A stretch of DNA of 64,000 nt from a virus (IMGVR_UViG_3300033075_001734:51692-115691), one strand, 5' to 3'. Counted from the stretch's first letter, positions 2,167 through 23,142 are shown. A program made the numbers and translations. The notes: generated by a model not told the origin, from the letters alone.

Positions 2167-3201
2167 ATGCGAATTTTAATTACTGGCGCGGCGGGATTTC
2201 TTGGTAGTCATTTGATGTTACGACACCTCATGTTAGGGGATGAAGTTCTTGGCATTGACAATTATTGTTCTTCTTCACCTCGTTCTTTACATGTGAAACG
2301 AATTCAATCATTATGTAAATCTACTGGACGAGGACTGTTGTTTAACGCAGATATAAATAAAGAAAAGTCTGACAATTATTCTCATAACACAGTTGATGAA
2401 GCATTAGATAATTTTTATACATTGGGTCACGGTGATAATCCGATAGATTTAATCTACAATTTCGCATGTCCCGCATCACCTCCTGTTTATCAACGAATGC
2501 CAATTGAAACGTTGATGACATGTACGTTTGGTGTCAAAAATATTCTTGATCTAGCAAGTGAACATAAGGCGAAAGTTGTTCATGCATCTACGTCAGAAAT
2601 TTATGGCGATCCTGAAATTTCACCTCAAATTGAATCGTATCGTGGAAGTGTAAATACATGGGGACCTCGAAGTAATTACGACGAAGGTAAACGTTGCGCC
2701 GAAGCATTGTGTTATGAATACTTGCAAAAAGGCGTTGATGTTAGAGTTGCTCGTATCTTTAATACGTATGGACCTCACTTAGATCCAAATGACGGGAGAG
2801 TTATTTCTAATTTCATAATGCAAGCAGGAAATAACAAACCAATTACGATTTACGGCAGCGGACTACAGACGCGTAGTTTTTGTTATGTTACTGATTTGAT
2901 TCGTGGTATTACGTCTCTTTCAGAAAGTGAAAATTTTCTAATGCCTATTAATATCGGAAATCCTACAGAGTTTACAATATTAGAATTGTCAAGTTTAATC
3001 TACAAAATGTTTCCAAATGCACCCGACCTAATTCCACAACAATTACCAGTTGATGATCCCACACGCCGGTGTCCAGATATATGGCTTGCAAAAGGAATTT
3101 TAAAGTGGGAACCTAAAGTAAGTTTAAGTGAAGGACTTTATAAGTTAGCGTCAGAATGGTTTGAGCAAGGTATTATTGTTGAAAGGCCAATTCAAATATG
3201 A
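2167..3201 (+). CDS. UDP-glucuronate decarboxylase (UDP-xylose synthase), SDR family
   Basis: Rossmann motif ILITGAAGFLGSHL at the N-terminus. The stretch ASTSEIYGDPE...YDEGKRCAE...VRVARIFNTYGP...DGRVISNF...YGSG.QTRSF.YV.DL is nearly co-linear with UXS1-type enzymes, including the catalytic YxxxK. Confidence 0.85.
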   Translation: MRILITGAAGFLGSHLMLRHLMLGDEVLGIDNYCSSSPRSLHVKRIQSLCKSTGRGLLFNADINKEKSDNYSHNTVDEALDNFYTLGHGDNPIDLIYNFACPASPPVYQRMPIETLMTCTFGVKNILDLASEHKAKVVHASTSEIYGDPEISPQIESYRGSVNTWGPRSNYDEGKRCAEALCYEYLQKGVDVRVARIFNTYGPHLDPNDGRVISNFIMQAGNNKPITIYGSGLQTRSFCYVTDLIRGITSLSESENFLMPINIGNPTEFTILELSSLIYKMFPNAPDLIPQQLPVDDPTRRCPDIWLAKGILKWEPKVSLSEGLYKLASEWFEQGIIVERPIQI

Positions 3202-6977: not shown

Positions 6978-7274
6978 ATGAAACAACAAATGACATTAAT
7001 AAAAGTTACAGACGTAGAGCATCGAATGATTATGGATTTCCGAGAAGGAATGAAACAATATATTCATGATAAAACTGCATCATTTAAGAAATCTTATCAT
7101 GATTATCGATATGCGCATCACTATAAATACAAAAATAAATCATTTTGGATTTTAAGTGAATTTTATTCCAGCGACGAAAATTCCATTGAAATGGTTGACA
7201 ATAAGGAATGGGAACAAGAATATTTAGAAAATATCGTTGTTAACACTGATTATTCGTATTTGTGGAATAAATAA
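6978..7274 (+). CDS. hypothetical protein
   Basis: ORF of 98 aa. Confidence 0.3.
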   Translation: MKQQMTLIKVTDVEHRMIMDFREGMKQYIHDKTASFKKSYHDYRYAHHYKYKNKSFWILSEFYSSDENSIEMVDNKEWEQEYLENIVVNTDYSYLWNK

Positions 7275-7801
7275 TGGCACAGCGAATCATCATGTTGGTT
7301 GGACCAGATCGTTGTGGAAAAACCGAAATCGCCAAAGAGCTTTCAAAGCGAACTGGAATTCCAAGATTTAAAGCATCAACAGAACACGATACGTATCTTA
7401 ACGGATTAGGTGGGTTTTTGAATCAATTACTTTATGCCGATCCTCGTGCATTTGATCTTGCAAAACAAATTGGATTTAGCATGATTATGGACAGGGCATA
7501 TCCATGTGAAAAAGTTTATTCAAAAGTTTTCAACAGAAAAACTGATGAAATGGTTCTTGACATCATGGATAAACGTTGGGCATCGTTGGGAACTAAAATT
7601 GTTATTTGTTATCGATCTTCATACAAGGGAATTGTTGATGATTTGGATTCAAGTATTAATGAAACAGTTCTTGAAAAATTGTCACAGGAATATTTTAATT
7701 TTGCCGCGTGGACGAATTGCGATGTCATGATGTTAAATGTCGATGACGAAAATCTTGATCGTGAAGTAACTGAAATAATGAATTGGTTGGAAAGAGAATA
7801 A
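7274..7801 (+). CDS. P-loop nucleotide/nucleoside kinase-like protein
   Basis: Walker A motif MLVGPDRCGKTEIAKEL at the N-terminus, in the size range of dNMP/dN kinases. Confidence 0.45.
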   Translation: MAQRIIMLVGPDRCGKTEIAKELSKRTGIPRFKASTEHDTYLNGLGGFLNQLLYADPRAFDLAKQIGFSMIMDRAYPCEKVYSKVFNRKTDEMVLDIMDKRWASLGTKIVICYRSSYKGIVDDLDSSINETVLEKLSQEYFNFAAWTNCDVMMLNVDDENLDREVTEIMNWLERE

Positions 7802-8481: not shown

Positions 8482-8518
8482 CAGTGTAATTGTTAACGTA
8501 TTAAGACTAGAATAACTT

Positions 8519-10247: not shown

Positions 10248-11745
10248 AAAAGTTTCAACTACGTTTGAAGACATCAAATTGTGGTATGAACAAAACATGT
10301 CACCTGATGTCATAAACTTTGATGATCCTGAACCATTTAAAGTTTATTCTGATTCACGTTGGTGCGGCGTATTTCAACTAACCTCTGTGGGAGCTCAGAA
10401 GCTCTTTACAAAGGCAAGGCCAAAATCGATTATCGATATTGCAGCATTGACATCTGTTTATCGACCTGGGCCTTTGTCTGCAAACGTTGATAAACTTTGG
10501 TTGAAACATGAATTTGAATCTTATGATTGGGGTCATCCTCTTATCAATGAAACACTAAAAGAAACTCGAGGATTATGCGTGTTTCAGGAAAGCGTAATGT
10601 CTTTAGCTAATAAAGTTGCTGGATTCCCGCTTGATGAAACTGACGAGGTCCGTCGGGCAATTATGAAGCGTAGCATTTCAGGTGGTGCTGCTGCAATTCA
10701 GAAAATGAAAGAACTTGAAGACTCTTTCGTTAATGGTTGTATGAACAATGGTGTTCCTCAAAATACTGCAACCAAAGCTTATGAGACTATATGTCATTTC
10801 TCTGGATATGGGTTCAATAAAAGTCATGCAGTCGCCTATGCAATCTGTTCATATTGGTGTGCATGGCTTTTAACATATCACGAGGAAGAATGGGTAACTG
10901 CATATATTGAATCAATGTCAAATTCACCAGATAAAAAAGAAAAAGCATTTGGTGAAGTTAAACAATTAGGTTATGAAATTGTTCCCATTGATATCAATCA
11001 TGCCCAGATTGGTTGGACTGTTCTTCCCGGCAAAAAATTGATGCCAAGTCTTTTGACATGTAAAGGTATTGGCGAATCAGCAGCCGAAGAAGTTATTGCA
11101 AATAGACCTTATGAAAATATTGAGCAAGTTCTTTGGAACGAAGATGGAACTTGGAAACCATCAAAATTCAATAAACGTGGTCTTGAAGCATTAATAAAAG
11201 TGGGTGCATTTGCTTCACTTGATTGTGTTGGTGAAGATAAACTTTTTGAGAGTTATCGTCATATGTATGAGGTCATCATTGAAAACTCAAATGCCATTAA
11301 AAAATCATCTAAAAAAGATCCGAGTATTGGCCGTAAGACATTCTTCGAATTAACTCGGGCCCTTCGACCAATGCCTGAATGGTCTAGACGAGAGTTAGTT
11401 GAGGCATATGTTGACGTGTTTGGAAGTTTGGATGTTTCCAAACTGTTAGAACAGGATGTTCTTAAGAAACTTGAAGACAAGAACGTCATGTCAATTGACA
11501 ACTGGGAACAAAAGGGCTTTCACTGGTTTGTTGTTCAGAGTGTTGTAACAAAGAAAACAAAAACAGGAAAAGCGTACTTAATGATTAAGGGTCTTGGTCC
11601 GATGGGAAAGTCTTATAGAATTAATGTGTGGGGTTGGAAAGAAGAAAATGAACCGCTTGAAGAATTTGATGTTATTGTTGCTGAACTTGATAAAAATGAA
11701 TATGGATTTTCAACAACGTCATGGCGATGTAAGGTGATTGCATGA
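10225..11745 (+). CDS. dnaE: DnaE C-terminal fragment (fingers and OB-fold region)
   Basis: Motifs GVFQLTSVGAQKLF...ALTSVYRPGPL and GYGFNKSHAVAYAICSYWCAWLLTYH (the FNKSHA.AYA DnaE motif). Confidence 0.85.
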   Translation: MSKITSLKKVSTTFEDIKLWYEQNMSPDVINFDDPEPFKVYSDSRWCGVFQLTSVGAQKLFTKARPKSIIDIAALTSVYRPGPLSANVDKLWLKHEFESYDWGHPLINETLKETRGLCVFQESVMSLANKVAGFPLDETDEVRRAIMKRSISGGAAAIQKMKELEDSFVNGCMNNGVPQNTATKAYETICHFSGYGFNKSHAVAYAICSYWCAWLLTYHEEEWVTAYIESMSNSPDKKEKAFGEVKQLGYEIVPIDINHAQIGWTVLPGKKLMPSLLTCKGIGESAAEEVIANRPYENIEQVLWNEDGTWKPSKFNKRGLEALIKVGAFASLDCVGEDKLFESYRHMYEVIIENSNAIKKSSKKDPSIGRKTFFELTRALRPMPEWSRRELVEAYVDVFGSLDVSKLLEQDVLKKLEDKNVMSIDNWEQKGFHWFVVQSVVTKKTKTGKAYLMIKGLGPMGKSYRINVWGWKEENEPLEEFDVIVAELDKNEYGFSTTSWRCKVIA

Positions 11746-13189: not shown

Positions 13190-14207
13190 TTTTTACTCTT
13201 CTGTACTGTTCGTCGTTTAGTTTTAATAATTTTGCTTGTTTTTCAATTGTGAGGTCTTTTGAGATTTTTCTGTCAACGCTTTTTGTTAAACCTTTTCTAA
13301 AATTCTCTAAAATGGTTGATAGCATTTCCTGTTTATTATATGCTCGATTTAATTCAAGTGTATTTGAGAGACCCACAATACCGTTAGCAAGTTCATCAAT
13401 TGAAACAGAATCATGCTTAAGTCCTGGGAATTGTTTTAATTTTTTATCTATAACACAATTTTCGCCAAGTAAATAATAAGCGATATCAAGAAGGAATGTA
13501 TTGAAATTTGTGGAAATATTTGAAATACTAACGCCCATTCTTTCATTTCCTCCTACACGAACTCCATTTTTCATTCGAACCAGAACGCCTTCTGTTCCTA
13601 TTGCAAGATTCAAGAAATCACCAAGAGCCTTGTAAAGAGTTCCTGTTACATAACCTTTAATTCCTCTTTCTGGAACGTATCTGCCTTTCATCCAATTTGA
13701 ATATTTTGGGTGTGTTATTGTTGTATCAACTTGTACAAGCGTTCCATTTACATCAACGACAATTTGTAAAGCATTTCCCTTAAGTGTTAATGGGACATTA
13801 ACATTTTTGGGTGATTGTGTTTGAAGAAATCTTATCAATAAATTTGAATAATCCCGCTTTGATTTTGCATCAGATTTTCTCTGGTGATTTGTGTCATCTG
13901 AATCATAATTCACGGGAAACGAAACCAAATAATCAACGTCACCATATGTTGTATCAGGTTTTTCAATTGCGTCGAGTTCTGCATACGTTGAAGATCCCGA
14001 AGGGCCCACGAGAACAACGGGTTCAAACCCTTCGCGTTCAAGCCAGATATTCCAATCATCAATGAAATTTTCGTATAACTTACAAGCGTCTTTTACCAAT
14101 TGAGGTGTTAATTCAACGCGTTTTTCAATTGGAAGTTTTAAACCTCCTTCATTTAACATGTGATTAATCACATTACGTAACTGTTTAATAGAAATATGCA
14201 TCGTCAA
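13173..14207 (-). CDS. hypothetical protein with a capsid-targeting-like N-terminus; possible nucleotidyltransferase
   Basis: N-terminus ISIKQLRNVINHMLNEGG. GPSGSS...DVDYLV is weakly like Pol-beta-type GS...DxD. Confidence 0.3.
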   Translation of the reverse strand: MTMHISIKQLRNVINHMLNEGGLKLPIEKRVELTPQLVKDACKLYENFIDDWNIWLEREGFEPVVLVGPSGSSTYAELDAIEKPDTTYGDVDYLVSFPVNYDSDDTNHQRKSDAKSKRDYSNLLIRFLQTQSPKNVNVPLTLKGNALQIVVDVNGTLVQVDTTITHPKYSNWMKGRYVPERGIKGYVTGTLYKALGDFLNLAIGTEGVLVRMKNGVRVGGNERMGVSISNISTNFNTFLLDIAYYLLGENCVIDKKLKQFPGLKHDSVSIDELANGIVGLSNTLELNRAYNKQEMLSTILENFRKGLTKSVDRKISKDLTIEKQAKLLKLNDEQYRRVKNAFNR

Positions 14208-14257
14208 TAAGTAATTTGTTTTGTGAAACTGTGAAATTAAATTGATTATTATGAATT

Positions 14258-14764
14258 ATGAGTAATTGTTTGTTTTGTGACAATGAAACAATATCTGGGA
14301 CAAATTTTTGTGATTGGGATTGTCATGTTAAAATGGCACAAAAATTAGGCGGAAAAGACCATCGCCCAAATAAGTTGCCTGTTAATTGTATTATGGCAGA
14401 TGGGACAATGCTTGAATGTGAACATGGTGATCATCCAAGTTATAAATTTCCAATCATGGTTGAAATTCCTGAAAAAGATCGTAAAGCACATTTTATGTAC
14501 GAACAGTCAGACGGTCATACGTATGAACTTTCTGACGAAGACATTAAAAATGAATCAGTAAATGAGAGACACGCACTGATATTTTTTGATGATACGGTTG
14601 CGTTAACGTTGTTTGAACACGTGTATTATATGTGGTCATTAAGCAGTGGATATTGCATACGAGACCCTTTTGCATTTAAGGGTGAAAAATCGTATTGGAA
14701 AATTTGTGATAGTGATTTAGAAAAAATTCGTAATGAAACTTTCAAAGTACAATTTACATTATAA
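14258..14764 (+). CDS. hypothetical Cys-rich protein
   Basis: Motif CLFCDNE...CDWDCH at the N-terminus. Confidence 0.35.
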   Translation: MSNCLFCDNETISGTNFCDWDCHVKMAQKLGGKDHRPNKLPVNCIMADGTMLECEHGDHPSYKFPIMVEIPEKDRKAHFMYEQSDGHTYELSDEDIKNESVNERHALIFFDDTVALTLFEHVYYMWSLSSGYCIRDPFAFKGEKSYWKICDSDLEKIRNETFKVQFTL

Positions 14765-14896
14765 TTTGTGGGCTAAAAATTATTTTTTCAATAGGTTGGA
14801 TTTTATTTGTCCTGGTGAATTGATTGTTGATGATATCAGCGGTTATAACGAATATGGATTAGTAATCTCTAACATAAACAATGTCATCCAAATTCT

Positions 14897-15139
14897 TTGG
14901 GCAATCGTTTAATGATTTATCCTGGCAGTTTATGCATATCACGTAGATGTATTGTGTTATTGAAAAACAAAAGAATGGTGAATCAATATTTCGGAGTGAT
15001 TTCTGCTAAATCACCATTTTTTATTGTCAGCATTGAAGAATTAACTTTTGATCGGTATTCATTATATGTAATAACATCTTCAATGCAAAAAATGGGTTGG
15101 ATTTATGATCTAAGTTCTAGCTTTGATTTGGTGGTATGA
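14897..15139 (+). CDS. PGDL/GWI small-protein family member
   Basis: Carries YPGSLCI and GWIYDL. Confidence 0.4.
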   Translation: MGNRLMIYPGSLCISRRCIVLLKNKRMVNQYFGVISAKSPFFIVSIEELTFDRYSLYVITSSMQKMGWIYDLSSSFDLVV

Positions 15140-15178
15140 AAATGCGAACATTTGATAAGTTATTCACGATGAAAAAAC

Positions 15179-15430
15179 ATGATATATCCCGGTGATTTAT
15201 GTATTGTACGAAGATTTAATGGGTCTGATTCATTTATCCCAGTTTATGATAAAAATTTCATCTTTTCTAAGAATAAAGTATGCATAGGGGGCTTTAAACA
15301 TATGTGTCTTGTTATTTGTTCGTTAACAATTAAGGGTGATTCATATTCTTCGTATTATATCATATCAGATAATGGTCTAACAGGCTGGATTTACGAATCA
15401 AAGTTTTTGATGAATACAAAATCTGTGTAG
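15179..15430 (+). CDS. PGDL/GWI small-protein family member
   Basis: Carries YPGDLCIV and GWIYES. Confidence 0.45.
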   Translation: MIYPGDLCIVRRFNGSDSFIPVYDKNFIFSKNKVCIGGFKHMCLVICSLTIKGDSYSSYYIISDNGLTGWIYESKFLMNTKSV

Positions 15431-15477
15431 TTTAATAGTAATGTTATTATGCATTCTAGTGAATTAAAATAAAATAA

Positions 15478-15699
15478 ATGAAAATTTATCCCGGTATGTT
15501 GTGTAAAATTGTTGGAGCTTTTGAAAATGACATACACATAATGATGCTTGATTGCGAAGATTATACTGATGCTTTTTTAGTTAAAAAAAATTCTTTAGCA
15601 TTAATTTTAACACAACATGGAGATGGGATGTTAGTGTTGTTAACGTCAACAAAACAAATTGGAACTATACATAGTTGTGTTTGTGATATTATAGGTTGA
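15478..15699 (+). CDS. PGDL/GWI small-protein family member
   Basis: Carries YPGMLCKIV and IGTIH. Confidence 0.4.
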   Translation: MKIYPGMLCKIVGAFENDIHIMMLDCEDYTDAFLVKKNSLALILTQHGDGMLVLLTSTKQIGTIHSCVCDIIG

Positions 15700-17024
15700 A
15701 TATGAAAAAGAAATTATTGATTCAAACACAGTTATCAAATTATAACTCACAAGGAAAATTTGATCTTGCCTGTGATAGCGGCTGGAATATGATGATGGGA
15801 AGAGTTAGAGAAATGCTCAAACTTAATCCCGATCTTTACATTGATATCATGGGGCCATATTACGATTATGATGGTCAAAATCAACTTGTAGAAGAACCCT
15901 GGAAAGTTAACAAAGATATTTTTGATTCTGGTCGTGTGCTATACATTCAACATTGGGTCATTCCAAATGCGCTTATAACAAGATATGATTTTGACTATAA
16001 GAATACTGATTATCAATTAAGACTTGAAGAACACAAAAAAGACGTGAGTTTAAGATATGATGCCGTGTACATTAATGATCCAATGCATCTTCGTAACTTT
16101 AAAGCATTGTTTTATTCATCTGGTGGGTATCGTCCAAAATTTTATGTTCATTCACACTTCGTAGATAATCCAACTTGTCCAAAATTTCCACTTGAATCTT
16201 CGTTATGGTTAGGACAATGCGAAGCAGCAATTCGCGCCGACTATAATTTTTGGCAATGTGAATCTGCGATGAACGTATTTTTTGATGAGATGAAAGATTT
16301 CTACAGAGAAGAACTTGTTGAATACACAAAATTGAAATCAATTCCTTGGGATGATGGTTATTCATCTACTGAAATTTCATCCGTAGTTGATGTAAATAAT
16401 CTACGATATCATAATATGATTGATGAATTCAATGTTAAAACATCTGATAAATGTGTTATTTTTGTTCCTAATCGTATTGGAGGAAAAGGAAGATCAAGTG
16501 ATTATACGAATTGTGGAAAATTCATGTTTGAAATTTTGCCAGAATTACGAAAGTTACGTGATGATTTTGTTGTGATTGCAGGAAATCCAAGTCAAAGATT
16601 TGTGAATGATGAACTTGAAACACTTTGTGGTGAAAATGGGTATATAAAGTTAGTCCCAGAAACTTTTAATAGAGATGAATATAAGTACATTGTTTCAAGG
16701 TGTGATATTGTCGCAGGTCTTTATGATCAAGATAGCTATGGTTCGACCGCCTCGAGAGAATGCGTTGATTTAGGTTGTGTACCTTTATGGATAGATAACT
16801 TTGAATATTCTGTGCTTTCACGAGAAGCAGGATATACAGAATATTTGGCAAAGCCTGATTTTTCTGATATTGTGAGTAAGACAAGTCGATTAATTGATTT
16901 GGTAAAAGCACGCGATCCAAAATTGTTTGTCACTAAAAAACACTTACAGCGTGTCATTAGAGAAAAGTGTTCATATGAAAGTACAACACCTAAAATGATG
17001 CAAATAATGAATTTGATGCCTTGA
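15696..17024 (+). CDS. putative GT-B glycosyltransferase
   Basis: C-terminal domain VIFVPNRIGGKG...VIAGNP...STASRECVDLGCVPL resembles GT1/GT4 donor-binding motifs. It lies between sugar-nucleotide enzymes. Confidence 0.4.
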   Translation: MNMKKKLLIQTQLSNYNSQGKFDLACDSGWNMMMGRVREMLKLNPDLYIDIMGPYYDYDGQNQLVEEPWKVNKDIFDSGRVLYIQHWVIPNALITRYDFDYKNTDYQLRLEEHKKDVSLRYDAVYINDPMHLRNFKALFYSSGGYRPKFYVHSHFVDNPTCPKFPLESSLWLGQCEAAIRADYNFWQCESAMNVFFDEMKDFYREELVEYTKLKSIPWDDGYSSTEISSVVDVNNLRYHNMIDEFNVKTSDKCVIFVPNRIGGKGRSSDYTNCGKFMFEILPELRKLRDDFVVIAGNPSQRFVNDELETLCGENGYIKLVPETFNRDEYKYIVSRCDIVAGLYDQDSYGSTASRECVDLGCVPLWIDNFEYSVLSREAGYTEYLAKPDFSDIVSKTSRLIDLVKARDPKLFVTKKHLQRVIREKCSYESTTPKMMQIMNLMP

Positions 17025-17071
17025 TGAAAATTCATATGAATAATTTTTACTTTTGAATTATGATACTTTAA

Positions 17072-18034
17072 ATGGCAACTATACTTGTGACAGGTGCAGC
17101 GGGATTTATTGGAAGTAATCTGTGTTCAACGTTAATTCATACAAATGAACATAACGTTGTAGGTGTTGATGACATGTCAAATGGTCATTTTCCCTTTATT
17201 CCCAAAGGATTAAGATTTTGGGAGAAATGCTTTTCAAGCAATAAAATTCTTGATAAAATTGAATCAGGATATTTTGATTATGTTGTGCATCTTGCGGCAA
17301 TACCACGCGTGAGTTATTCTGTTAAGTTTCCTGTAAAAACAAATAGTGTTAATGTATCAAAAACTCTTAAATTAATGGATTCATGTGTAAGAGGAAAAGT
17401 TAAAAGATTTGTTTTTGCAAGTTCATCATCTGTATACGGTGGTTTAGCGTTAAGACCTACAAAAGAGGATTCACGCAAATTTCCTCAATCACCTTATGCA
17501 TTGCAGAAAAGTATAATTGAAGATTATTTGAAAATGTATAATACGTTTTACGAATTTGAATCTGTATGTTTGCGTTTTTTTAATGTATTTGGACCAAATG
17601 CACTTGGTTCAAGTCCGTATGCAACCGCCCTTGCATCTTGGTTAACGTCAATTAACAAAGGTGAGAAAATGAGATCAGATGGTAATGGTCTACAAAGTAG
17701 GGATTTGTGTCATGTCGACAATGTTGTTTCGGCGATAATAAAATCAATTGAAACCCAAAAAGTTTTGGGTGCCAATTGTTATAATGTAGCAAGCGGCGTA
17801 AGTGTAACAAATAAGGAAATAATTGATTTTCTCTTAAAAAGATATCCGTCAGCAAATTACTATTCTGTTCCTGATCGTCTTGGTGACGTTAAACATACGT
17901 TGGCAAATATAGAAAAATCTAAAAGTGATTTAGGTTATGAACCAATTGTAAAAACTTGGGAAGGAATTGAAAAAACTTGCGACTGGTATGATGCAAATTG
18001 GAATTGGATTTCGAAGATGAAACAGGTAATCTGA
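17072..18034 (+). CDS. NAD-dependent epimerase/dehydratase (extended SDR)
   Basis: ILVTGAAGFIGSNL plus the catalytic YALQKS (YxxxK). Confidence 0.8.
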   Translation: MATILVTGAAGFIGSNLCSTLIHTNEHNVVGVDDMSNGHFPFIPKGLRFWEKCFSSNKILDKIESGYFDYVVHLAAIPRVSYSVKFPVKTNSVNVSKTLKLMDSCVRGKVKRFVFASSSSVYGGLALRPTKEDSRKFPQSPYALQKSIIEDYLKMYNTFYEFESVCLRFFNVFGPNALGSSPYATALASWLTSINKGEKMRSDGNGLQSRDLCHVDNVVSAIIKSIETQKVLGANCYNVASGVSVTNKEIIDFLLKRYPSANYYSVPDRLGDVKHTLANIEKSKSDLGYEPIVKTWEGIEKTCDWYDANWNWISKMKQVI

Positions 18035-18849
18035 TGAAAGTTTATAACGACAAAGAAATATTTCGTGATATTTTTGCTAGATTTGATGCGAAGGCAAATA
18101 TGGTTCGACCTCGTGGACAACTTGTTCGTGAAGTTGAGAATTTTTCATATGAATTGCCTCCTTATGTTAGATTTCAAAATTTTGCTTCAAGGAAAATGAA
18201 TCTTTCATACTTTAAGCGTGAAATGCTTTGGTATTTAAAAGGAGAAAGATTCGATACAAGCATATGTGATCATGCTAAAATTTGGAAAGATGTCGTTAAT
18301 AAAGACGGGTCCATTAATTCAAATTATGGGCAGTATATTTTTTCACGTAAGAATGATGATACGTCACAATTTGATAATGTCATCAATATTTTATGTGCAG
18401 ATAAAGATTCCCGCCGCGCAAGTATTACGATATTGAATAGTGATCATTTGCTATCTGATACAAATGATGTACCATGTACGTATGCTCTAAATTTTAGAAT
18501 AAGACATAATGAGCTTAACATGTCAGTTCATATGAGATCACAAGATGCAATTTTTGGCATGGGATCTGATGCACCTGCATTTAGTGTTATTCATGAAATG
18601 GTTTTAGAAGCATTAAGAATAAAATACCTATCATTGAAAATGGGTTATTATTTTCATTCTGTTGATTCGTTTCACGTTTATGAACGTCATTGGGGAATGC
18701 TTGAAAAAATAATTGAAGGTGATGATTTTGAAAAAATAGAGTGTCCTAAAATTTCTGGGCCTCAAGAAGTTGAATATATGATGAAGAGAATTCATGATAA
18801 AAATCATAAATCAAATTATGAATTTTCAAATTGGTTGTTAGACGTTTAA
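17998..18849 (+). CDS. thymidylate-synthase-family enzyme, probably a dCMP hydroxymethylase
   Basis: DSRRASITILNSDHL (RRxI..WN-like), catalytic Cys in VPCTYALNF, MRSQDAIFGMGSDAPAF and FHVYERH. Asp sits at the position of ThyA Asn177, as in T4 gp42. Confidence 0.6.
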   Translation: MELDFEDETGNLMKVYNDKEIFRDIFARFDAKANMVRPRGQLVREVENFSYELPPYVRFQNFASRKMNLSYFKREMLWYLKGERFDTSICDHAKIWKDVVNKDGSINSNYGQYIFSRKNDDTSQFDNVINILCADKDSRRASITILNSDHLLSDTNDVPCTYALNFRIRHNELNMSVHMRSQDAIFGMGSDAPAFSVIHEMVLEALRIKYLSLKMGYYFHSVDSFHVYERHWGMLEKIIEGDDFEKIECPKISGPQEVEYMMKRIHDKNHKSNYEFSNWLLDV

Positions 18850-18862
18850 GAAAGGTTTTTAT

Positions 18863-19423
18863 ATGACTTGTATACTTGGTTTAGTTGATGGTAAAACAGT
18901 TTATGTTGGTGGTGATAGTGCAGGAACTTCAGGTGATTTATCGCAAAGAATAATTGGTGATAAGAAAGTTTTTAAACGTGATGCCGTTGTTTTTGGTGTG
19001 TGTGGTTCACCAAAAGTCATGGATGCGCTTATGCATGTTTTAGTTGTTCCCAAACGTAAAACAGGTCAAGATGTTGGTGAATACGTAAGAAGAGATTTAG
19101 TTCCTTCACTAAAAAAAGTTCTTGCAGAAACTGGGTGTGTTTCTAATAATGAACAACATAATGAATTATTTGAAGGTGCAATCATGGTAGGTTGTCATGG
19201 AAAACTCTTTGTAATTGAAAGTAATTTTCAAGTGATTACAAATGCTTATGGATTTGATTCTGTTGGTTCGGGTTCTGATATAGCAATAGGTTCGATGCAT
19301 GCATCAATGAAAGAACGTAATGCTAAAAAACGCATGTTGATGGCTCTTGAAGCATCGTCAATAAATAATGCAGGTGTTCGTCCTCCGTTTACAATTGTTT
19401 CAACATCAAAAGGTCTGTTCTGA
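18863..19423 (+). CDS. HslV/proteasome-beta-like Ntn hydrolase
   Basis: MTCILGLVDGKTVYVGGDSAGT resembles HslV [21 protein letters not shown], with Thr2 as nucleophile. GSGSDIAIGS resembles IGSGG. Confidence 0.55.
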   Translation: MTCILGLVDGKTVYVGGDSAGTSGDLSQRIIGDKKVFKRDAVVFGVCGSPKVMDALMHVLVVPKRKTGQDVGEYVRRDLVPSLKKVLAETGCVSNNEQHNELFEGAIMVGCHGKLFVIESNFQVITNAYGFDSVGSGSDIAIGSMHASMKERNAKKRMLMALEASSINNAGVRPPFTIVSTSKGLF

Positions 19424-19974
19424 TGACATGTATTGTCGGTGTTAATCACAATGGTAATATATACATTGGAGGCGACAGTGCAGGTGTTGCAGGTTTACAA
19501 CTTCAAATAAGATCAGATGAAAAAGTATTCTTAACGGGTGATTTTATCATGGGGTTTACGACCTCATTTAGAATGGGTCAATTATTGAGATATGCTTTCT
19601 CACCTCCGGAACACTCGCAAAAAAAAGATGATATGACATATCTTGTCACAGATTTTGTTGATTCTGTGCGTGATTGTTTTAGGGACAATGGATATTTAAC
19701 AAGAGAGTCTGACGTAGAATCTGGTGGCTCGTTTTTATTTGGATATAGAAATAATTTGTATTCAATGGAAGATGATTTTCAAATTGCAAAATCACAAGCT
19801 AATTTTGCAGCATGTGGATGTGGTGCTCAAGTCGCATTAGGCGCAATGGCCGCGAGTCGAACTCTGGGGTTAACACCAGAAAAAAGAATAGAATTGTCAT
19901 TGCTCGCCGCAGAAGAATTTAGCGCAGGAGTGAGGGGACCATTTACAATTTTAATGTTGCCTAAGGCGGAATAA
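19423..19974 (+). CDS. HslV/proteasome-beta-like Ntn hydrolase (tandem paralog)
   Basis: MTCIVGVNHNGNIYIGGDSAGVAG and CGCGAQVALGAM. ATGA overlap with the previous gene. Confidence 0.55.
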   Translation: MTCIVGVNHNGNIYIGGDSAGVAGLQLQIRSDEKVFLTGDFIMGFTTSFRMGQLLRYAFSPPEHSQKKDDMTYLVTDFVDSVRDCFRDNGYLTRESDVESGGSFLFGYRNNLYSMEDDFQIAKSQANFAACGCGAQVALGAMAASRTLGLTPEKRIELSLLAAEEFSAGVRGPFTILMLPKAE

Positions 19975-20004
19975 ATACGTACAAAAGTAACAAGGAGTCA
20001 ATAT

Positions 20005-20583
20005 ATGCTATCTCAAAACCCAACGTTTAAAGTCATAACAGGTCCAATGTTTGCGTCAAAAACCACGCGTGTGCTCATGATGTTAAATAGACTTAAATAT
20101 CAGGGTAAAAAAACTGTGCTATTCAAGCCAGATATTGACAACAGGTATAGTGATACCGCAGTTGTAACGCACGATGGAACATCTGCACCAGCGTATGTTG
20201 TCAAAACCGGAGCTGACATTATTGAGTGCATATCAAATTTAGATGATACCAATATTGACACCGTTGTTATAGATGAAGCGTTTATGATTTCAGGCGTTTC
20301 TGAAGCTTCATTATTTCTCTATAAAAACGGAATTAACGTGATTATATCAACGCTTGATATATCTGCCTCAGGGAAGTCATTTAAAGAAATTGAAAAGATA
20401 TTACCTTGGGCGACACATATTGAAAAGTGTACAGCAATATGTGTCATTTGTGGTTCGAATGCACCATATACATATAAAAAACTTGTGAACGAAGATTCTG
20501 AAGAAATTCAAATTGGTGGTGACGAACTTTATGAACCTCGATGTTTAACACATCATCCTATCATTAACGAACAAGTAAAATGA
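20005..20583 (+). CDS. tdk: thymidine kinase (TK1 type)
   Basis: GPMFASKTT P-loop and a C-terminal zinc ribbon CVICG...EPRC. An AAGGAG Shine-Dalgarno lies 8 nt upstream. Confidence 0.85.
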   Translation: MLSQNPTFKVITGPMFASKTTRVLMMLNRLKYQGKKTVLFKPDIDNRYSDTAVVTHDGTSAPAYVVKTGADIIECISNLDDTNIDTVVIDEAFMISGVSEASLFLYKNGINVIISTLDISASGKSFKEIEKILPWATHIEKCTAICVICGSNAPYTYKKLVNEDSEEIQIGGDELYEPRCLTHHPIINEQVK

Positions 20584-21107
20584 TTGCAACAAAAAGAAAA
20601 CACATATATGATTCTCATACACATCGTTGTATTAACTGTGGAACAAAAAGATATCAACCTGTAGGTTCACCCGAGATTAATTGTCGCCCAACTTGGCATG
20701 AAGTTTGGATGAACGTTGCGATTAATATTTCTAGTAGGTCGTATGACCCAAGGTTAAAAGTTGGGTGTGTAATTGTTACAGATGATAACACACAGGTTTT
20801 GAGTGTCGGTTACAACGGAAATTATAAAGGCGGGCAAAATTATCCAGAATCATTAGAACCTGGAAAGTCAGGTTTTTTGCATGCAGAACTTAATTCATTG
20901 ATAAAATGTGATTATCATTATCCCAAAAAAAAATATATGTATGTAACGCATAGTCCCTGTGTTGATTGTGCGCGAATTATTTTGAATTCTTCGATTTCAA
21001 AAGTTATTTATAATGAGGAATATCGCAATCTTCAAGGTATTGAATTATTGCGCAATAATGGTATAAAGATTTCTTCGTTACACGATGCGATAATTGAAGA
21101 ACTATAA
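20580..21107 (+). CDS. dCMP deaminase
   Basis: HAELNSL...SPCVDCAR (the HAE/PCxxC zinc motif). Confidence 0.8.
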   Translation: MIATKRKHIYDSHTHRCINCGTKRYQPVGSPEINCRPTWHEVWMNVAINISSRSYDPRLKVGCVIVTDDNTQVLSVGYNGNYKGGQNYPESLEPGKSGFLHAELNSLIKCDYHYPKKKYMYVTHSPCVDCARIILNSSISKVIYNEEYRNLQGIELLRNNGIKISSLHDAIIEEL

Positions 21108-21122
21108 TGTATATTTACTTGT

Positions 21123-21404
21123 ATGAAAACACTTAAAGAAAAAGATGTAATTCGTATTATACGTGAAGAATGGGAAAAGAAAGTTTTTAAGATTGCTGAA
21201 ACAGCGGGCATTGCATTTGATGCAAAAATTAATGGCGAGAAAATGCCATTGATATCGCCTGAATTAAAGGTTATGCATACAAAATCTGGAATACGTTACA
21301 CCGTTGATTCAGTGGGTCCAAGAGATGTAATTCTTCGCACGCCAGAAAATGAAACCTTTCTCGTTGATAAAGACACGCTCGAAAAAGAATATCACTTAGA
21401 TTAA
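21123..21404 (+). CDS. hypothetical protein
   Basis: ORF of 93 aa. Confidence 0.35.
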   Translation: MKTLKEKDVIRIIREEWEKKVFKIAETAGIAFDAKINGEKMPLISPELKVMHTKSGIRYTVDSVGPRDVILRTPENETFLVDKDTLEKEYHLD

Positions 21405-21442
21405 ATTTGAACGTCCTATTTATCTATTAAAGGTTAAATTTA

Positions 21443-22153
21443 ATGTCTACACAGAAAAACTCATTTATTGCTGGCGTTGATATTGCATCAATCGTAAAGA
21501 AAAGTATACGTGAAAATGATACTGGGAAATTACTAGATGAATCATATGTTGCAGAACCAAAATCATATAAACAAGTAAGTGAACTTGTTTCGCAGAAAAC
21601 AAAAACTGCGCACACTGCGCTATACAAGTCTTATATTGAATCGCTTAATGATGTGTCAAATATGATTGACACAGCAGATCGTTCAAAAGCTGATTCAAAA
21701 CATTCAAGTTACAGATCACTTAAACTTGATGAGATTTACAATTTGAATGCAGTTTGGTTGCATGAATTGTATTTCGCAAATTGTTTTGATCCACATTCTG
21801 AAATAACAATGAACACGAAGTCTTATATGAGACTTGAGCGTGATTTTGGTACGTTCGACGATTGGCAGAAAGACTTTATTGCTTGTGCGCTTTCAGCTGG
21901 GAACGGTTGGGCAGTATGCGGCTATAACATTTACTTAAGACGTTTTGTAAATACACTAGTGTCAAATCACAGTCAAGATGTGATGTTGGGCCTCTACCCA
22001 GTAATTGTTGTTGACATGCATGAACACTCATATTCACGTGATTATTCAACAGATAAAAAATCGTATTTGATTGCACAAATGCGCGAATTTCATTGGGACG
22101 TAATAGAAGAGAGATTTGTAAGGGCGGAATCACTTAATGAGGTGTTAAAATGA
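21443..22153 (+). CDS. Fe/Mn superoxide dismutase family protein
   Basis: LERDFGTFDDW...GNGWAV resembles ERDFGS...GSGWAWL, and GLYPVIVVDMHEHSY resembles GLDVWEHAYY. Candidate ligands H(TAHTALY), H(LHELY), D and H are retained. Confidence 0.7.
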   Translation: MSTQKNSFIAGVDIASIVKKSIRENDTGKLLDESYVAEPKSYKQVSELVSQKTKTAHTALYKSYIESLNDVSNMIDTADRSKADSKHSSYRSLKLDEIYNLNAVWLHELYFANCFDPHSEITMNTKSYMRLERDFGTFDDWQKDFIACALSAGNGWAVCGYNIYLRRFVNTLVSNHSQDVMLGLYPVIVVDMHEHSYSRDYSTDKKSYLIAQMREFHWDVIEERFVRAESLNEVLK

Positions 22154-23142
22154 AAATACGTTTAGGTGATTTAAAGAAAATTATTGAAAATGCCTCATTA
22201 AACGAGGTTTCTTATAAGGTTTCTTATACTGAAAAAAATGGAAAACAAGGTTCATCAATTTTTCCAAGTGAAAAATTGGCGCAAATGTATGCAAAAACAG
22301 TAAAAAATGGTCAAGTTGAATTAATTGATTTGAACGCAGGCGAAGATATCACAGTTAAACAAATGCCCCCAGCGAGTTTAGACGATTTGAAAAAAGCGTC
22401 AAAAACTTTTTATGATAATCATCAAAGTAAATACGTAAAACAAAAACCAGCGTCAGGAGACGATTCTGAAGAAGAGCGTTCATATGAACAAGAGCGTGAA
22501 TTATTTGGAGCGCACCGAGCCGCAGGAACTTCATTGGATGATTTTTACAGTGATTTAGATGACATGAAGTCAAATAGACGTAAATCAGAATCAATATATC
22601 GAAAATATGTGAATCGTCTTTTAGAAGAAAAAGACGATCAGGAAAAATTGAATCATGAAGAAAATGATTCCCTGGATACACAAGTTGATCGTTTCTTAGG
22701 TCAATATGAAAGTGAAGCGAAGTCTGTAAAAACAGAAGGTTTAAATTTTCGGTCAATGACACGCCGTTTTTTAAATGAAGCAGAGGATGAAGACAAGTCT
22801 GATGACAAAGAAGACGAAAAAGATGATTCTAAAAATGAAGAACCAGAAGAACCTGAGAAATTAACGTTGGAAGACATAGACATTGCTTCATTCGCAAATG
22901 ATGTTGCAAGATTGGTTGACAATTATGATTCTTTACTTGAAGTTCGTAATACGATTGTACGAAGAGCAAAGAATTTTCTGAATAAATCATATGATGTTGA
23001 TGTGTTAAGTTCGTTTGAAAATTCAATGCAAAATGATCATGATATATCAACAGAAAAATCAAAATATGATTTAGATGATGAACACGTGGCTCCCGATGCA
23101 GAACGTGCAGGTAATGGCGGCGGTGGTGGAGGAAGTGTATAA
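22150..23142 (+). CDS. acidic low-complexity protein with a capsid-targeting-like N-terminus
   Basis: N-terminus MKIRLGDLKKIIENASL, D/E/K-rich, poly-Gly C-terminus. Confidence 0.4.
   Translation: MKIRLGDLKKIIENASLNEVSYKVSYTEKNGKQGSSIFPSEKLAQMYAKTVKNGQVELIDLNAGEDITVKQMPPASLDDLKKASKTFYDNHQSKYVKQKPASGDDSEEERSYEQERELFGAHRAAGTSLDDFYSDLDDMKSNRRKSESIYRKYVNRLLEEKDDQEKLNHEENDSLDTQVDRFLGQYESEAKSVKTEGLNFRSMTRRFLNEAEDEDKSDDKEDEKDDSKNEEPEEPEKLTLEDIDIASFANDVARLVDNYDSLLEVRNTIVRRAKNFLNKSYDVDVLSSFENSMQNDHDISTEKSKYDLDDEHVAPDAERAGNGGGGGGSV

What the first reader, a model, noticed from the sequence alone, without database searches (positions are those of the whole stretch)
15696..18849. Probable dCMP hydroxymethylase next to a UDP-sugar pathway and glycosyltransferase, suggesting glycosylated hmC DNA (possibly pentosyl)
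The ThyA-family enzyme keeps the catalytic Cys (VPCTYALNF) but has Asp where thymidylate synthase has Asn177 (FGMGSDAPAF versus LGLPFNIASY). That substitution switches specificity from dUMP to dCMP in T4 gp42 and in TS N177D mutants. It overlaps a UDP-sugar 4-epimerase-type SDR and follows a GT-B glycosyltransferase. A bona fide UDP-glucuronate decarboxylase (UDP-xylose synthase) is at 2167-3201. UXS plus a 4-epimerase would yield UDP-xylose and UDP-L-arabinose, so a pentosylated hydroxymethylcytosine (as reported for some T-even-like phages) is a testable possibility. The dCMP deaminase and thymidine kinase nearby complete a T4-like nucleotide module.
Basis: inference. Interest (0 to 1): 0.65.

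Follow-up and report, generated by a model that had tools for sequence, protein, structure and literature searches.

The report
Phage hydroxymethylcytosine-glycosylation gene cluster
An uncultured giant phage carries adjacent genes that most likely replace cytosine with hydroxymethylcytosine and then attach a sugar to it using a previously unannotated sugar-transferring enzyme family; this is a new variant of the T4 way of hiding DNA from host nucleases.

Summary
Three co-oriented genes lie at 15702-18849: a 440-aa protein with no family hit, an SDR sugar-nucleotide 4-epimerase, and a ThyA-family enzyme whose ATG overlaps the epimerase stop codon by one base.

The ThyA homolog carries all 14 diagnostic residues of T4 gp42 dCMP hydroxymethylase. 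It lacks the Asn that marks the recently described 5-hydroxy-dCMP synthases such as RB69 gp48.

In every related contig with enough flanking sequence, and in two unrelated phage contigs with distant homologs of this transferase, it sits within about 5 kb of a ThyA gene with the hydroxymethyl-C signature. A conserved P-loop nucleotide kinase is usually nearby.

The closest cultured relative of the hydroxymethylase, in Ralstonia phage RsoM2USA, lies 5 kb from an unannotated T4 beta-glucosyltransferase homolog.

The gene at 2167-3201 matches UDP-xylose synthase strongly.

Glycosylated hmC is therefore well supported. The sugar, pentose or other, is unresolved.

The parts
15702..17024 (+). Glycosyltransferase of GT-B fold, GT4-like and therefore probably retaining. 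It is the founding member here of an unannotated family and the proposed DNA hmC glycosyltransferase. The mechanical ORF starts at TTG 15696.
17072..18034 (+). Extended-SDR nucleotide-sugar 4-epimerase, the proposed supplier of the GT's sugar donor.
   Evidence: PF01370 at 1e-46. PHROG 540 nucleotide-sugar epimerase at 8e-67. Best PDB matches are WbgU, WbpP and TviC-type 4-epimerases at 148-159 bits; E. coli GalE scores 86. GAAGFIGS and S...YxxxK motifs are present. It lies between GT and ThyA in about 29 of 31 related loci.
18034..18849 (+). dCMP hydroxymethylase (5-hydroxymethyl-dCMP synthase) of the ThyA superfamily. The mechanical ORF starts at TTG 17998.
   Evidence: PF00303 at 85 bits. 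Best PDB matches are MilA at 78 bits and T4 gp42 at 71 bits, against at most 53 bits for thymidylate synthases. It shares all 14 signature residues with T4 gp42: E58, S-N-Y94, R126, R127, D143, C146, R166, S167, D169, D177, H207, Y209. It is 58% identical to RsoM2USA_10.
7274..7801 (+). P-loop nucleotide kinase, the candidate (hydroxymethyl-)dNMP kinase of the pathway.
   Evidence: PHROG thymidylate kinase at 7e-6. A profile of the family hits deoxyguanosine kinase 2jaq at 1e-4 and YorR at 5e-3. It is conserved upstream of the GT in nearly all related loci. Homologs lie next to the ThyA or GT gene in other contigs: L124, L125 (34% identity, E 2e-25), L127, L128 and L130.
2167..3201 (+). UDP-glucuronate decarboxylase (UDP-xylose synthase). 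A possible but unproven contributor to the sugar donor.
   Evidence: 281 bits, E 1e-82 to human UXS1. The TSE, YxxxK, NDGRV and QTR motifs are conserved, and an extra loop of about 28 aa follows residue 40. It is 48.8% identical to a pSymB homolog that other records annotate as a UDP-glucuronic acid decarboxylase family protein. Homologs of 50-57% identity occur on at least 16 of 30 GT-bearing contigs, usually next to DnaE.
20005..20583 (+). Thymidine kinase, part of the syntenic nucleotide-metabolism block.
   Evidence: PF00265 at 1.4e-40. NCBIfam thymidine kinase at 147.6 bits, below the model's curated cut-off of 183. Conserved downstream of the ThyA gene in relatives.
20580..21107 (+). dCMP deaminase, part of the syntenic nucleotide-metabolism block.
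   Evidence: PF00383 at 1.4e-19. PHROG 174 dCMP deaminase at 6.8e-44. Conserved in relatives.

Best explanation
The genes form a cytosine-hypermodification module in an uncultured jumbo phage.

Step 1 is inferred from a complete active-site signature. The ThyA homolog (18034-18849) uses methylene-tetrahydrofolate to convert dCMP to 5-hydroxymethyl-dCMP, as T4 gp42 does.

Step 2 is inferred from weak homology plus recurring gene context. The conserved P-loop kinase (7274-7801) phosphorylates hm-dCMP. Host NDP kinase makes hm-dCTP, and the phage DnaE-type polymerase incorporates it.

Step 3 is inferred from fold plus gene linkage. After replication, the GT4-like GT-B enzyme (15702-17024) transfers a sugar from a UDP-sugar to the hydroxyl of hmC in DNA, probably with retention of configuration (alpha linkage).

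Step 4 is inferred. The adjacent, translationally coupled SDR 4-epimerase (17072-18034) makes the donor by C4 epimerisation of a host or phage UDP-sugar. If UXS (2167-3201) feeds it, the donor would be UDP-xylose or UDP-L-arabinose. UDP-Gal, UDP-GalNAc and UDP-GalA are equally open.

The biological role would be protection of phage DNA from restriction and CRISPR nucleases.
For: Hydroxymethylase.
- It shares all 14 signature residues with T4 gp42.
- These include the cytosine-selecting Asp (N177D) and the water-activating Asp three residues before the catalytic Cys.
- They also include the Ser-x-Tyr pair, with roles established in PMC6400193, and the Arg and Ser that select deoxyribose over ribose (PMC5175136).
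- Asp is kept at the D169 position, whereas all tested 5-hydroxy-dCMP synthases have Asn there (PMC13326640).
- 118 of its 120 closest homologs share the signature.

Transferase.
- Remote family members weakly hit Glycos_transf_1 and Glyco_transf_4.

Linkage.
- In all 30 loci of the lineage with enough flank (the window included), a ThyA gene lies about 0.1-5 kb downstream of the GT.
- That ThyA gene is of three divergent types (about 50% identical to gp42; window type; a 330-360 aa type). All of them have D143, C146, D169 and D177.
- So the position is kept for function while the gene itself has been replaced.
- A more distant jumbo-phage contig, L124 (GT 37% identical), has kinase-GT-SDR-HMase in a row followed by the same TK/deaminase/SOD block.
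- Two unrelated contigs with GT homologs of 26-27% identity also carry an hmC-signature ThyA and the kinase. L127 adds a T4 gp56-like dCTPase, a UGD and an SDR. L130 has a PolA polymerase.

Independent contexts of the window-type hydroxymethylase all involve derivatisation of a hydroxyl.
- RsoM2USA has a T4 beta-GT homolog (137 bits to 1bgt) 5 kb away.
- L125 has a dUTPase_2-type NTPase, the kinase, a UGM-like protein and a GT.
- Xp15 and HHU4 have a carbamoyltransferase-sized gene two genes upstream, annotated 'putative carbamoyl transferase' only in Xp15, matching the 5hmC carbamoylation described in PMC8670742.

A one-base stop/start overlap couples the SDR to the hydroxymethylase.
Against: There is no biochemical or mass-spectrometric evidence; every step rests on sequence, predicted fold and gene context.

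- Much of the synteny comes from one phage lineage with conserved gene order, so those loci are not independent. Only L127 and L130, and partly L124, L128 and L131, add independence.
- No dCTPase is visible in the window, so full replacement of C is not shown.
- No UDP-glucose dehydrogenase was found in the window or in the lineage's flanks.
- UXS homologs are common in unrelated viruses (548 hits), so UXS need not serve DNA modification.
- The SDR's substrate cannot be read from sequence.
Confidence: 0.7

Rival explanations
1. The phage makes hmC, but the GT, the SDR and UXS serve a different target, such as virion proteins or the host envelope. The hmC would stay unglycosylated or be modified by another enzyme.
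For: Nucleotide-sugar SDRs and UXS are widespread viral auxiliary genes; there are 323 phage records with SDR hits and 548 viral UXS relatives, including giant viruses. The GT resembles non-DNA GT4 enzymes at least as well as it resembles T4 alpha-GT. UXS is 13 kb from the GT.
Against: The GT is tied to an hmC-signature ThyA gene and a nucleotide kinase in two unrelated phage contigs (L127, L130), as well as throughout the window's lineage and the more distant jumbo contig L124. In L127 it lies in one compact block with a gp56-like dCTPase. The SDR is translationally coupled to the hydroxymethylase.
Confidence: 0.15
2. The ThyA homolog is a dCMP methyltransferase like that of XP12, giving 5-methylcytosine DNA with no hydroxyl to glycosylate.
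For: It has the cytosine-selecting Asp, which such enzymes also need.
Against: The position three residues before the catalytic Cys is Asp, not a bulky hydrophobic residue. This Asp, together with the Ser-x-Tyr pair, is the reported signature of hydroxymethylation. The enzyme is linked to transferases that need a hydroxyl acceptor.
Confidence: 0.05
3. The ThyA homolog is a flavin-dependent 5-hydroxy-dCMP synthase, and the DNA carries sugars ether-linked directly to C5, as in RB69, DLP3 and RL38J1.
For: RB69-type clusters have the same parts (ThyA homolog, Tmk-like kinase, GT4-like GT), and their GTs give the same structural hits, MshA and SPS.
Against: The diagnostic D169N change is absent. 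The window enzyme, all 30 linked ThyA genes and 120 of 120 closest homologs have Asp there. The enzyme is only 22-26% identical to RB69 gp48. No arabinose-5-P isomerase homolog was found in any locus.
Confidence: 0.03
4. It is an ordinary thymidylate synthase completing a dTMP module with dCMP deaminase and thymidine kinase.
For: It matches Pfam Thymidylat_synt. Databases and the RsoM2USA paper label homologs 'thymidylate synthase'. The neighbouring deaminase makes dUMP.
Against: Asn177 and Leu143 are both replaced by Asp. NCBIfam thymidylate synthase equivalogs score 63 bits against cut-offs of 327 or more. PDB thymidylate synthases score at most 53 bits, against 71-78 bits for cytosine hydroxymethylases. 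RsoM2USA has a separate true Td.
Confidence: 0.02

Closest known systems
T-even phage hmC glucosylation system (T4 gp42 dCMP hydroxymethylase, gp1 dNMP kinase, gp56 dCTPase, alpha- and beta-glucosyltransferases)
   Same: The logic is the same: hm-dCMP is made before replication by a ThyA homolog with an identical active-site signature, and a GT-B enzyme then glycosylates the DNA. dCMP deaminase and thymidine kinase lie in the same block. Many relatives of the window carry a true gp42-like enzyme (about 50% identical) at the same position.
   Different: The window's hydroxymethylase is only about 27-32% identical to gp42. The GT has no sequence similarity to either T4 enzyme (GT72, GT63; only the alpha-GT was compared by profile) and looks GT4-like. 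The kinase is Tmk/dNK-like and not gp1-like. The phage encodes sugar-nucleotide enzymes (4-epimerase, UXS), which points to a donor other than host UDP-glucose. The replicase is a DnaE-type polymerase in a roughly 300-kb jumbo phage.
Arabinosyl- and hexosyl-5-hydroxycytosine systems of RB69, DLP3, HY126 and RL38J1 (Lee et al. 2026, PMC13326640)
   Same: The cluster architecture matches: ThyA homolog, Tmk/YorR-like nucleotide kinase, GT4-like GT-B transferase(s) and phage-encoded sugar-nucleotide synthesis. The GTs give the same structural neighbours (MshA, SPS, BshA).
   Different: Those ThyA homologs carry D169N, use a flavin and O2, and make 5-hydroxy-dCMP. This one has Asp169 and the hydroxymethylase signature. 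Their UDP-arabinofuranose comes from ribulose-5-P through an isomerase, a kinase/uridylyltransferase and a phosphatase. None of those genes were found here.
Ralstonia jumbo phage RsoM2USA (ORF10 and ORF2)
   Same: ORF10 is the closest cultured homolog of the window's hydroxymethylase (58% identity, same signature). dCMP deaminase and an Acb2/Tad1-like gene lie nearby.
   Different: RsoM2USA lacks the window's GT family. It has instead a T4 beta-glucosyltransferase homolog, ORF2, 5 kb away. Both genes are 'hypothetical protein' in the record; the paper lists ORF10 as a putative thymidylate synthase. No adjacent SDR was seen.
5-carbamoyloxymethylcytosine clusters (MetaGPA study, PMC8670742; Xanthomonas phage Xp15 and Acinetobacter phage HHU4 contexts)
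   Same: The ThyA homolog is of the same subfamily (40-42% identical, same signature). It lies two genes from an enzyme that derivatises the hmC hydroxyl.
   Different: The modifying enzyme there is a carbamoyltransferase, not a glycosyltransferase.
Bacterial and plant UDP-xylose / UDP-L-arabinose pathway (UGD, UXS, UDP-xylose 4-epimerase)
   Same: A convincing UXS and a 4-epimerase-type SDR are both encoded.
   Different: The two genes are 13 kb apart. No UGD was found. The SDR is closest to UDP-HexNAc 4-epimerases, and no test of UDP-xylose specificity was possible. An attempt to fetch the S. meliloti uxs-uxe pair for comparison found no neighbouring epimerase at the locus retrieved.

Membership tests
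dCMP hydroxymethylase (T4 gp42 type, ThyA superfamily) | Thymidylate-synthase fold and domain | tested here: met
   PF00303 at 85.1 bits against a cut-off of 24.3. PDB matches to MilA, T4 gp42 and thymidylate synthases.
dCMP hydroxymethylase (T4 gp42 type, ThyA superfamily) | Catalytic Cys (T4 C148, E. coli C146) and catalytic Glu (E60/E58) | tested here: met
   VPCT and KREMLW align with the reference residues.
dCMP hydroxymethylase (T4 gp42 type, ThyA superfamily) | Asp in place of thymidylate synthase Asn177 (T4 D179), giving cytosine specificity | tested here: met
   GSDAPA aligns with RNDYAW of T4 and PFNIAS of E. coli.
dCMP hydroxymethylase (T4 gp42 type, ThyA superfamily) | Asp or Glu three residues before the Cys (T4 D145), plus the Ser-x-Tyr pair (S94/Y96) that positions water for hydroxymethylation | tested here: met
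   NDVPC and INSNYG match T4 exactly. The roles of these residues come from PMC6400193.
dCMP hydroxymethylase (T4 gp42 type, ThyA superfamily) | Deoxyribose-selecting Arg126' and Ser167 (MilA, which prefers CMP, has Lys and Ala) | tested here: met
   DSRR and MRSQD are present. The rule comes from PMC5175136.
dCMP hydroxymethylase (T4 gp42 type, ThyA superfamily) | Enzyme converts dCMP and methylene-THF to 5-hydroxymethyl-dCMP | not testable with these tools
   Needs an assay.
5-hydroxy-dCMP synthase (RB69 gp48 type) | Asn at the position of E. coli ThyA Asp169 (D169N) | tested here: not met
   The window has Asp (MRSQD), whereas RB69 gp48 has Asn (MRSQN). The diagnostic comes from PMC13326640.
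Thymidylate synthase ThyA (EC 2.1.1.45) | Asn177, hydrophobic Leu143, and a score above the curated equivalog cut-off | tested here: not met
   Both positions are Asp. The best NCBIfam thymidylate synthase model scores 63.3 bits against a cut-off of 327.
GT-B glycosyltransferase, GT4-like (retaining) | Two Rossmann-like domains with an interdomain cleft | tested here: met
GT-B glycosyltransferase, GT4-like (retaining) | Sequence membership (Pfam Glycos_transf_1 / Glyco_transf_4) and the E-x7-E motif | tested here: inconclusive
   The window protein has no Pfam hit. Only 6 of 47 remote relatives hit PF00534, and weakly. The motif is D346-x8-E355, invariant in the family; this is similar to E-x7-E but not identical.
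T4 DNA alpha-glucosyltransferase (GT72) / beta-glucosyltransferase (GT63) | Detectable sequence homology to the T4 enzymes | tested here: not met
   hhalign probability is 0.4% to T4 alpha-GT. tblastn with T4 alpha-GT and beta-GT finds nothing in the window or in related loci.
DNA (hmC) glycosyltransferase, functional class | Transfers a sugar to 5-hydroxymethylcytosine in duplex DNA | not testable with these tools
   Only gene-context evidence exists.
UDP-glucuronate decarboxylase (UXS) | Close homology to characterised UXS, with the T/S-E, YxxxK and Arg catalytic residues | tested here: met
   281 bits to human UXS1. ASTSEIYGDPE, YDEGKR, NDGRVISNF and QTRSF are all conserved.
UDP-sugar 4-epimerase (GalE/WbpP-type extended SDR) | GxxGxxG NAD motif and the Ser/Thr...YxxxK triad, with no dehydratase or decarboxylase motifs | tested here: met
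   GAAGFIGS, SSSSVYG and YALQK are present. PF01370 at 1e-46. Best PDB hits are 4-epimerases. All NCBIfam equivalog cut-offs are missed, so no specific subfamily can be assigned.
UDP-xylose 4-epimerase specifically | Interconverts UDP-Xyl and UDP-L-Ara | not testable with these tools
   No diagnostic residues are known to me and no reference sequence was obtained.

The most novel reading that the evidence does not exclude
A widespread lineage of uncultured jumbo phages, seen for example in groundwater metagenomes, replaces cytosine with hmC carrying a sugar not yet known on DNA. The sugar would be xylose or L-arabinopyranose, made by a phage-encoded UXS and 4-epimerase from host UDP-glucuronate, or else a uronic acid or N-acetylhexosamine. 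It would be installed by a new GT4-like family of DNA glycosyltransferases. Distant members of that family, paired with different SDRs and in one case a UGD, would decorate hmC with a range of sugars in unrelated phages.
Probability: 0.3. Interest if true: 0.7.

Novelty: new variant of a known kind. Interest (0 to 1): 0.55.

Why it matters
Hypermodified phage DNA resists restriction enzymes and CRISPR nucleases, and it has supplied tools such as the T4 glucosyltransferases used in 5hmC mapping.

This cluster would add three things.
- A new, unannotated family of probable DNA glycosyltransferases. Only 143 representative clusters exist among 1.8 billion proteins, with no Pfam or PHROG model.
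- Evidence that hmC glycosylation extends to jumbo phages that use DnaE-type polymerases.
- A likely non-glucose sugar supplied by phage-encoded sugar-nucleotide enzymes.

It also predicts that the cultured phage RsoM2USA has glucosyl-hmC DNA. That can be tested at once and was not noted in its description.

The residue signature used here separates 5hm-dCMP synthases from 5ho-dCMP synthases and could be applied to re-annotate hundreds of 'thymidylate synthase' entries.

Tried and rejected
- Megablast of 15000-21200 against phages found nothing. tblastn of the GT against phages also found nothing, so there is no close cultured relative.
- BLASTP of the GT against RsoM2USA ORF11 and ORF14 showed no similarity. 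ORF14 is a NAMPT.
- hhalign of the GT family against T4 alpha-GT and RB69 gp47 showed no relationship.
- The pI of the GT family (5.3-6.5) was compared with the T4 enzymes as a proxy for DNA binding. It was uninformative, because T4 alpha-GT is also acidic.
- The promoter and terminator scan of 14000-22500 gave fewer promoter-like sites than shuffled sequence and no convincing terminator inside the cluster, so it says nothing about operon structure.
- A single-protein UXS scan of IMG/VR failed.
- I tried to obtain the S. meliloti uxs-uxe pair to test UDP-xylose 4-epimerase likeness. The pSymB locus retrieved has no neighbouring epimerase, and I dropped the attempt.
- The 251-258 aa ORFs between GT and SDR in some relatives turned out to be DUF7487-like. 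They are probably mobile elements, not pathway genes, and they are absent from the window.
- tblastn searches for T4 gp56, E. coli Ugd and RB69 arabinose-5-P isomerase in the window and the lineage loci were negative.
- No tRNA genes were found.

Full report
**What is there.**
The interval holds three co-oriented genes.
- The first ORF (15696-17024) probably starts at ATG 15702, two bases after the preceding stop codon. That gives 440 aa, the length of its 93%-identical relative.
- The second (17072-18034, 320 aa) is an extended SDR.
- The third is listed from TTG 17998. It almost certainly starts at ATG 18034, which shares one base with the SDR's TGA stop (TGATG). That gives 271 aa, as in relatives.

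No terminator-like site separates the three genes, although the scan itself is uninformative. The window is AT-rich (about 34% GC) and almost all genes lie on one strand. It comes from a jumbo-phage-like genome with a DnaE-type polymerase, a GroEL and other large-phage genes. No cultured phage is close: megablast found nothing and the DnaE finger domain is at most 33% identical to any phage record.

**The ThyA homolog.**
It matches Pfam Thymidylat_synt at 85 bits. In the PDB, however, it scores best against the cytosine hydroxymethylases: MilA at 78 bits and T4 gp42 at 71 bits, against at most 53 bits for thymidylate synthases. It falls far below every NCBIfam thymidylate synthase cut-off, 63 bits against 327 or more.

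I aligned it with T4 gp42, RB69 gp48 and E. coli ThyA fetched from annotated records and read off the published determinants.
- N177D selects cytosine. L143D/E goes with non-methyl products. D169N marks the flavin-dependent 5-hydroxy-dCMP synthases (PMC13326640).
- The Asp three residues before the Cys, together with Ser94 and Tyr96, positions the water for hydroxymethylation (PMC6400193).
- Arg126' and Ser167 select deoxyribose, where CMP-preferring MilA has Lys and Ala (PMC5175136).

At all 14 positions the window enzyme is identical to T4 gp42 (E, S-N-Y, R, R, D, C, R, S, D, D, H, Y). It differs from RB69 gp48, which has T-F-Y, E and N, and from E. coli ThyA, which has P-V-Y, L and N. Of its 120 closest database homologs, 118 share the signature exactly, and the other two differ only at a ribose or phosphate contact. 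I therefore rate 'dCMP hydroxymethylase' at about 0.9. The rivals (thymidylate synthase, dCMP methylase, 5-hydroxy-dCMP synthase) are each contradicted at a defining residue.

**The upstream protein.**
It has no hit in Pfam, PHROGs or NCBIfam and none by tblastn in 50,697 phage records. It does have 409 metagenomic homologs, on contigs of up to about 350 kb.

Foldseek agrees. These are the same structural neighbours reported for the DNA arabinosyl- and galactosyl-transferases of DLP3, RB69 and RL38J1.

Profile comparison finds no sequence relationship to T4 alpha-GT or RB69 gp47. An exhaustive HMM search of 1.84 billion representatives finds only 143 clusters. A few remote members weakly touch Glycos_transf_1, Glyco_transf_4 and the N-terminal domain of the tRNA-queuosine mannosyltransferase. 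It is thus a small, divergent and so far unannotated GT4-like family.

**Gene context within the lineage.**
I fetched 30 IMG/VR loci and several metagenome loci that carry the GT and searched them with the window's proteins and reference proteins.

Every locus with enough downstream sequence has a ThyA-family gene about 0.1-5 kb after the GT. In about 29 of 31 loci the SDR lies between them. The block of HslV-like genes, thymidine kinase, dCMP deaminase and SOD-like gene usually follows.

The ThyA gene is of three mutually divergent types. One is truly gp42-like (48-57% identical to T4 gp42). One is the window's type. One is a longer type of 330-360 aa. All 30 have D143, C146, D169 and D177. 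The gene has therefore been replaced in place while the hydroxymethyl-C chemistry was kept.

A P-loop protein (window 7274-7801) is conserved upstream of the GT in nearly all loci. It weakly resembles thymidylate and deoxynucleoside kinases and YorR. YorR is the same structural hit reported for the nucleotide kinases next to the ThyA homologs of DLP3 and RB69.

**Independent contexts.**
Synteny within one lineage is not independent evidence, so I looked outside it.

For the window-type hydroxymethylase:
- In Ralstonia phage RsoM2USA (58% identity), ORF2 lies 5 kb away and is a clear T4 beta-glucosyltransferase homolog, at 137 bits and E 5e-39 to 1bgt. Both genes are 'hypothetical protein' in the record, and the paper lists ORF10 as a putative thymidylate synthase.
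- In a 47-kb PolB phage contig (L125), the hydroxymethylase is flanked by a dUTPase_2-type NTPase, a kinase 34% identical to the window's, a UDP-galactopyranose-mutase-like protein and a GT.
- In Xp15 and HHU4 a carbamoyltransferase-sized gene lies two genes upstream, annotated 'putative carbamoyl transferase' only in Xp15. That fits the hmC carbamoylation described in PMC8670742.

For the GT family (25-37% identical homologs):
- L124 has kinase-GT-SDR-hydroxymethylase in a row. It is a more distant jumbo-phage contig that keeps the downstream TK/deaminase/SOD block, so it is only partly independent.
- L127 has, in order, a T4 gp56-like dCTPase, a UDP-glucose dehydrogenase, an SDR epimerase, the kinase, a cytidylyltransferase-like protein, a UDG-like protein, the GT and a ThyA gene with the D/D/D signature.
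- L130, a PolA phage, has a UDG-like protein, the GT, the kinase, PolA and a ThyA gene with the D/D/D signature.
- L128 and L131 pair the GT with an SDR, and L128 also with the kinase.

These contexts, above all L127 and L130, make a role for the GT in hmC-DNA glycosylation the best explanation. I put it at about 0.7.

**Which sugar.**
The adjacent SDR has epimerase motifs and no dehydratase or decarboxylase motifs. It is closest to the WbgU, WbpP and TviC-type 4-epimerases at 148-159 bits, well ahead of E. coli GalE at 86 bits, and no NCBIfam equivalog cut-off is met.

The gene at 2167-3201 is a convincing UDP-xylose synthase: 281 bits to human UXS1, catalytic motifs intact, and an extra loop of about 28 aa. 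UXS homologs of 50-57% identity occur on at least 16 of the 30 GT-bearing IMG/VR contigs, usually beside DnaE about 10 kb upstream. The scan was truncated, so absence from a contig cannot be inferred.

No UDP-glucose dehydrogenase was found in the window or in the lineage's flanks. UXS is also common in unrelated viruses. Distant GT homologs pair with different SDRs, a GalE-like one preceded by UGD in L127 and a CDP-tyvelose-2-epimerase-like one in L131. The family therefore probably uses different donors in different phages.

A UXS-then-epimerase route to UDP-Xyl or UDP-L-Ara is plausible (about 0.25-0.3), but UDP-Gal, UDP-GalNAc and UDP-GalA are not excluded.

RB69-type 'arabinosyl-hmC' has been revised to arabinosyl-5-hydroxycytosine. 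It is made by a D169N ThyA homolog, with UDP-arabinofuranose derived from ribulose-5-P. The window has neither feature.

**What is missing.**
No dCTPase is visible in the window. A gp56/MazG-like NTPase of 128-137 aa occurs in relatives. It lies about 5 kb upstream of UXS in several loci, for example L044, L048 and L053, and about 5 kb upstream of the GT in L028, L033 and L041. It has only weak similarity to dimeric dUTPase. In the window the position upstream of UXS would fall off the left edge. Two NUDIX proteins (36400-36906 and 45135-45674) are present, but I have no evidence for their role. Whether C is fully replaced therefore remains open.

**Verdict.**
The module works like the T-even hmC-glycosylation system. 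It is built from a divergent hydroxymethylase subfamily, a new GT4-like transferase family, a Tmk-like kinase and phage-encoded sugar-nucleotide enzymes, in an uncultured jumbo-phage lineage. I rate it a new variant of a known kind, with interest 0.55.

Noticed in passing
window 4332-11745: The DnaE-type DNA polymerase III alpha gene is broken into three ORFs. The first (4332-6410) carries the PHP domain, the first 109 positions of the NTPase domain and a C-terminal Hint/intein-like segment. The second (8519-9256) carries the rest of the NTPase domain. The third (10225-11745) carries the finger and HHH domains. Between them lie the P-loop kinase, a methyltransferase-like ORF (7783-8481) and a Vsr/DUF559-like endonuclease (9228-10247). 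A relative (L002) has one intact 1179-aa gene. This could be a split intein or mobile-element fragmentation.
   Followed up: partly
window 54861-57500 (- strand): An 879-aa protein has Major Vault Protein shoulder, Vault_3 and Vault repeat domains (PF11978 at 4.9e-31). That is unusual for a phage.
   Followed up: no
L001:17385-18515 and L001:11962-12798 (Ralstonia phage RsoM2USA ORF2 and ORF10): ORF2, annotated hypothetical, is a T4 beta-glucosyltransferase homolog (137 bits to 1bgt). ORF10 is 'hypothetical protein' in the record and 'putative thymidylate synthase' in the paper, and it has the full dCMP hydroxymethylase signature. This predicts glucosyl-hmC DNA in a cultured jumbo phage, which its description does not mention.
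   Followed up: partly
L012-L041 versus the window, ThyA position downstream of the GT: Three mutually divergent hydroxymethylase types (gp42-like, window/Xp15-like, and a 330-360 aa type) occupy the same syntenic slot in related jumbo-phage contigs. This is in-place xenologous replacement with the active-site signature kept.
   Followed up: yes
L127:1008-7793: A compact cluster on an unrelated 7.8-kb contig holds, in order, a gp56-like dCTPase, a UDG-like paralog, a UDP-glucose dehydrogenase, an SDR, the kinase, a cytidylyltransferase-like protein, a second UDG-like paralog, the GT and an hmC-type ThyA gene. UDG-family genes also flank the GT or ThyA gene in L125 and L130. Their role is unknown.
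   Followed up: partly
window 14897-15699: Three tandem paralogous small ORFs of 73-83 aa share an N-terminal IYPGxLC motif. They lie directly upstream of the GT. Close relatives carry many small ORFs at the same place.
   Followed up: partly
window 18863-19974: Two tandem HslV/proteasome-beta-like genes (PHROG 1040, about 1e-19) lie directly after the hydroxymethylase and are conserved in relatives.
   Followed up: no
window 21443-22153: A Fe/Mn superoxide-dismutase-like protein has a good C-terminal domain and only a weak N-terminal domain. It is conserved at 60-96% identity across most of the lineage (37-44% in the most divergent loci).
   Followed up: no
window 28587-51403: There are other auxiliary genes typical of very large phages: a CN-hydrolase (28587-29378), an RNA ligase (40100-41116), a fatty-acid-hydroxylase-like protein (39534-40064), a papain-like and a trypsin-like protease (44075-44830; 46158-46991 on the - strand), an ADP-ribosylglycohydrolase (47369-48292), a GroEL-type chaperonin (49739-51403), a pyrimidine-dimer glycosylase (45685-46155) and two NUDIX hydrolases.
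   Followed up: no
L002:9757-9996 and L001:12798-13022: Acb2/Tad1-hairpin (anti-CBASS/Thoeris sponge-like) genes lie immediately next to the GT in L002 and next to the hydroxymethylase in RsoM2USA.
   Followed up: no
L009:11302-12057, L123:2849-3787 and L123:7060-8004: DUF7487 proteins, one of them with an FCS zinc finger, are inserted at variable places in the cluster in relatives. For example, one sits between the SDR and the hydroxymethylase in L123. They behave like mobile elements and are absent from the window.
   Followed up: partly
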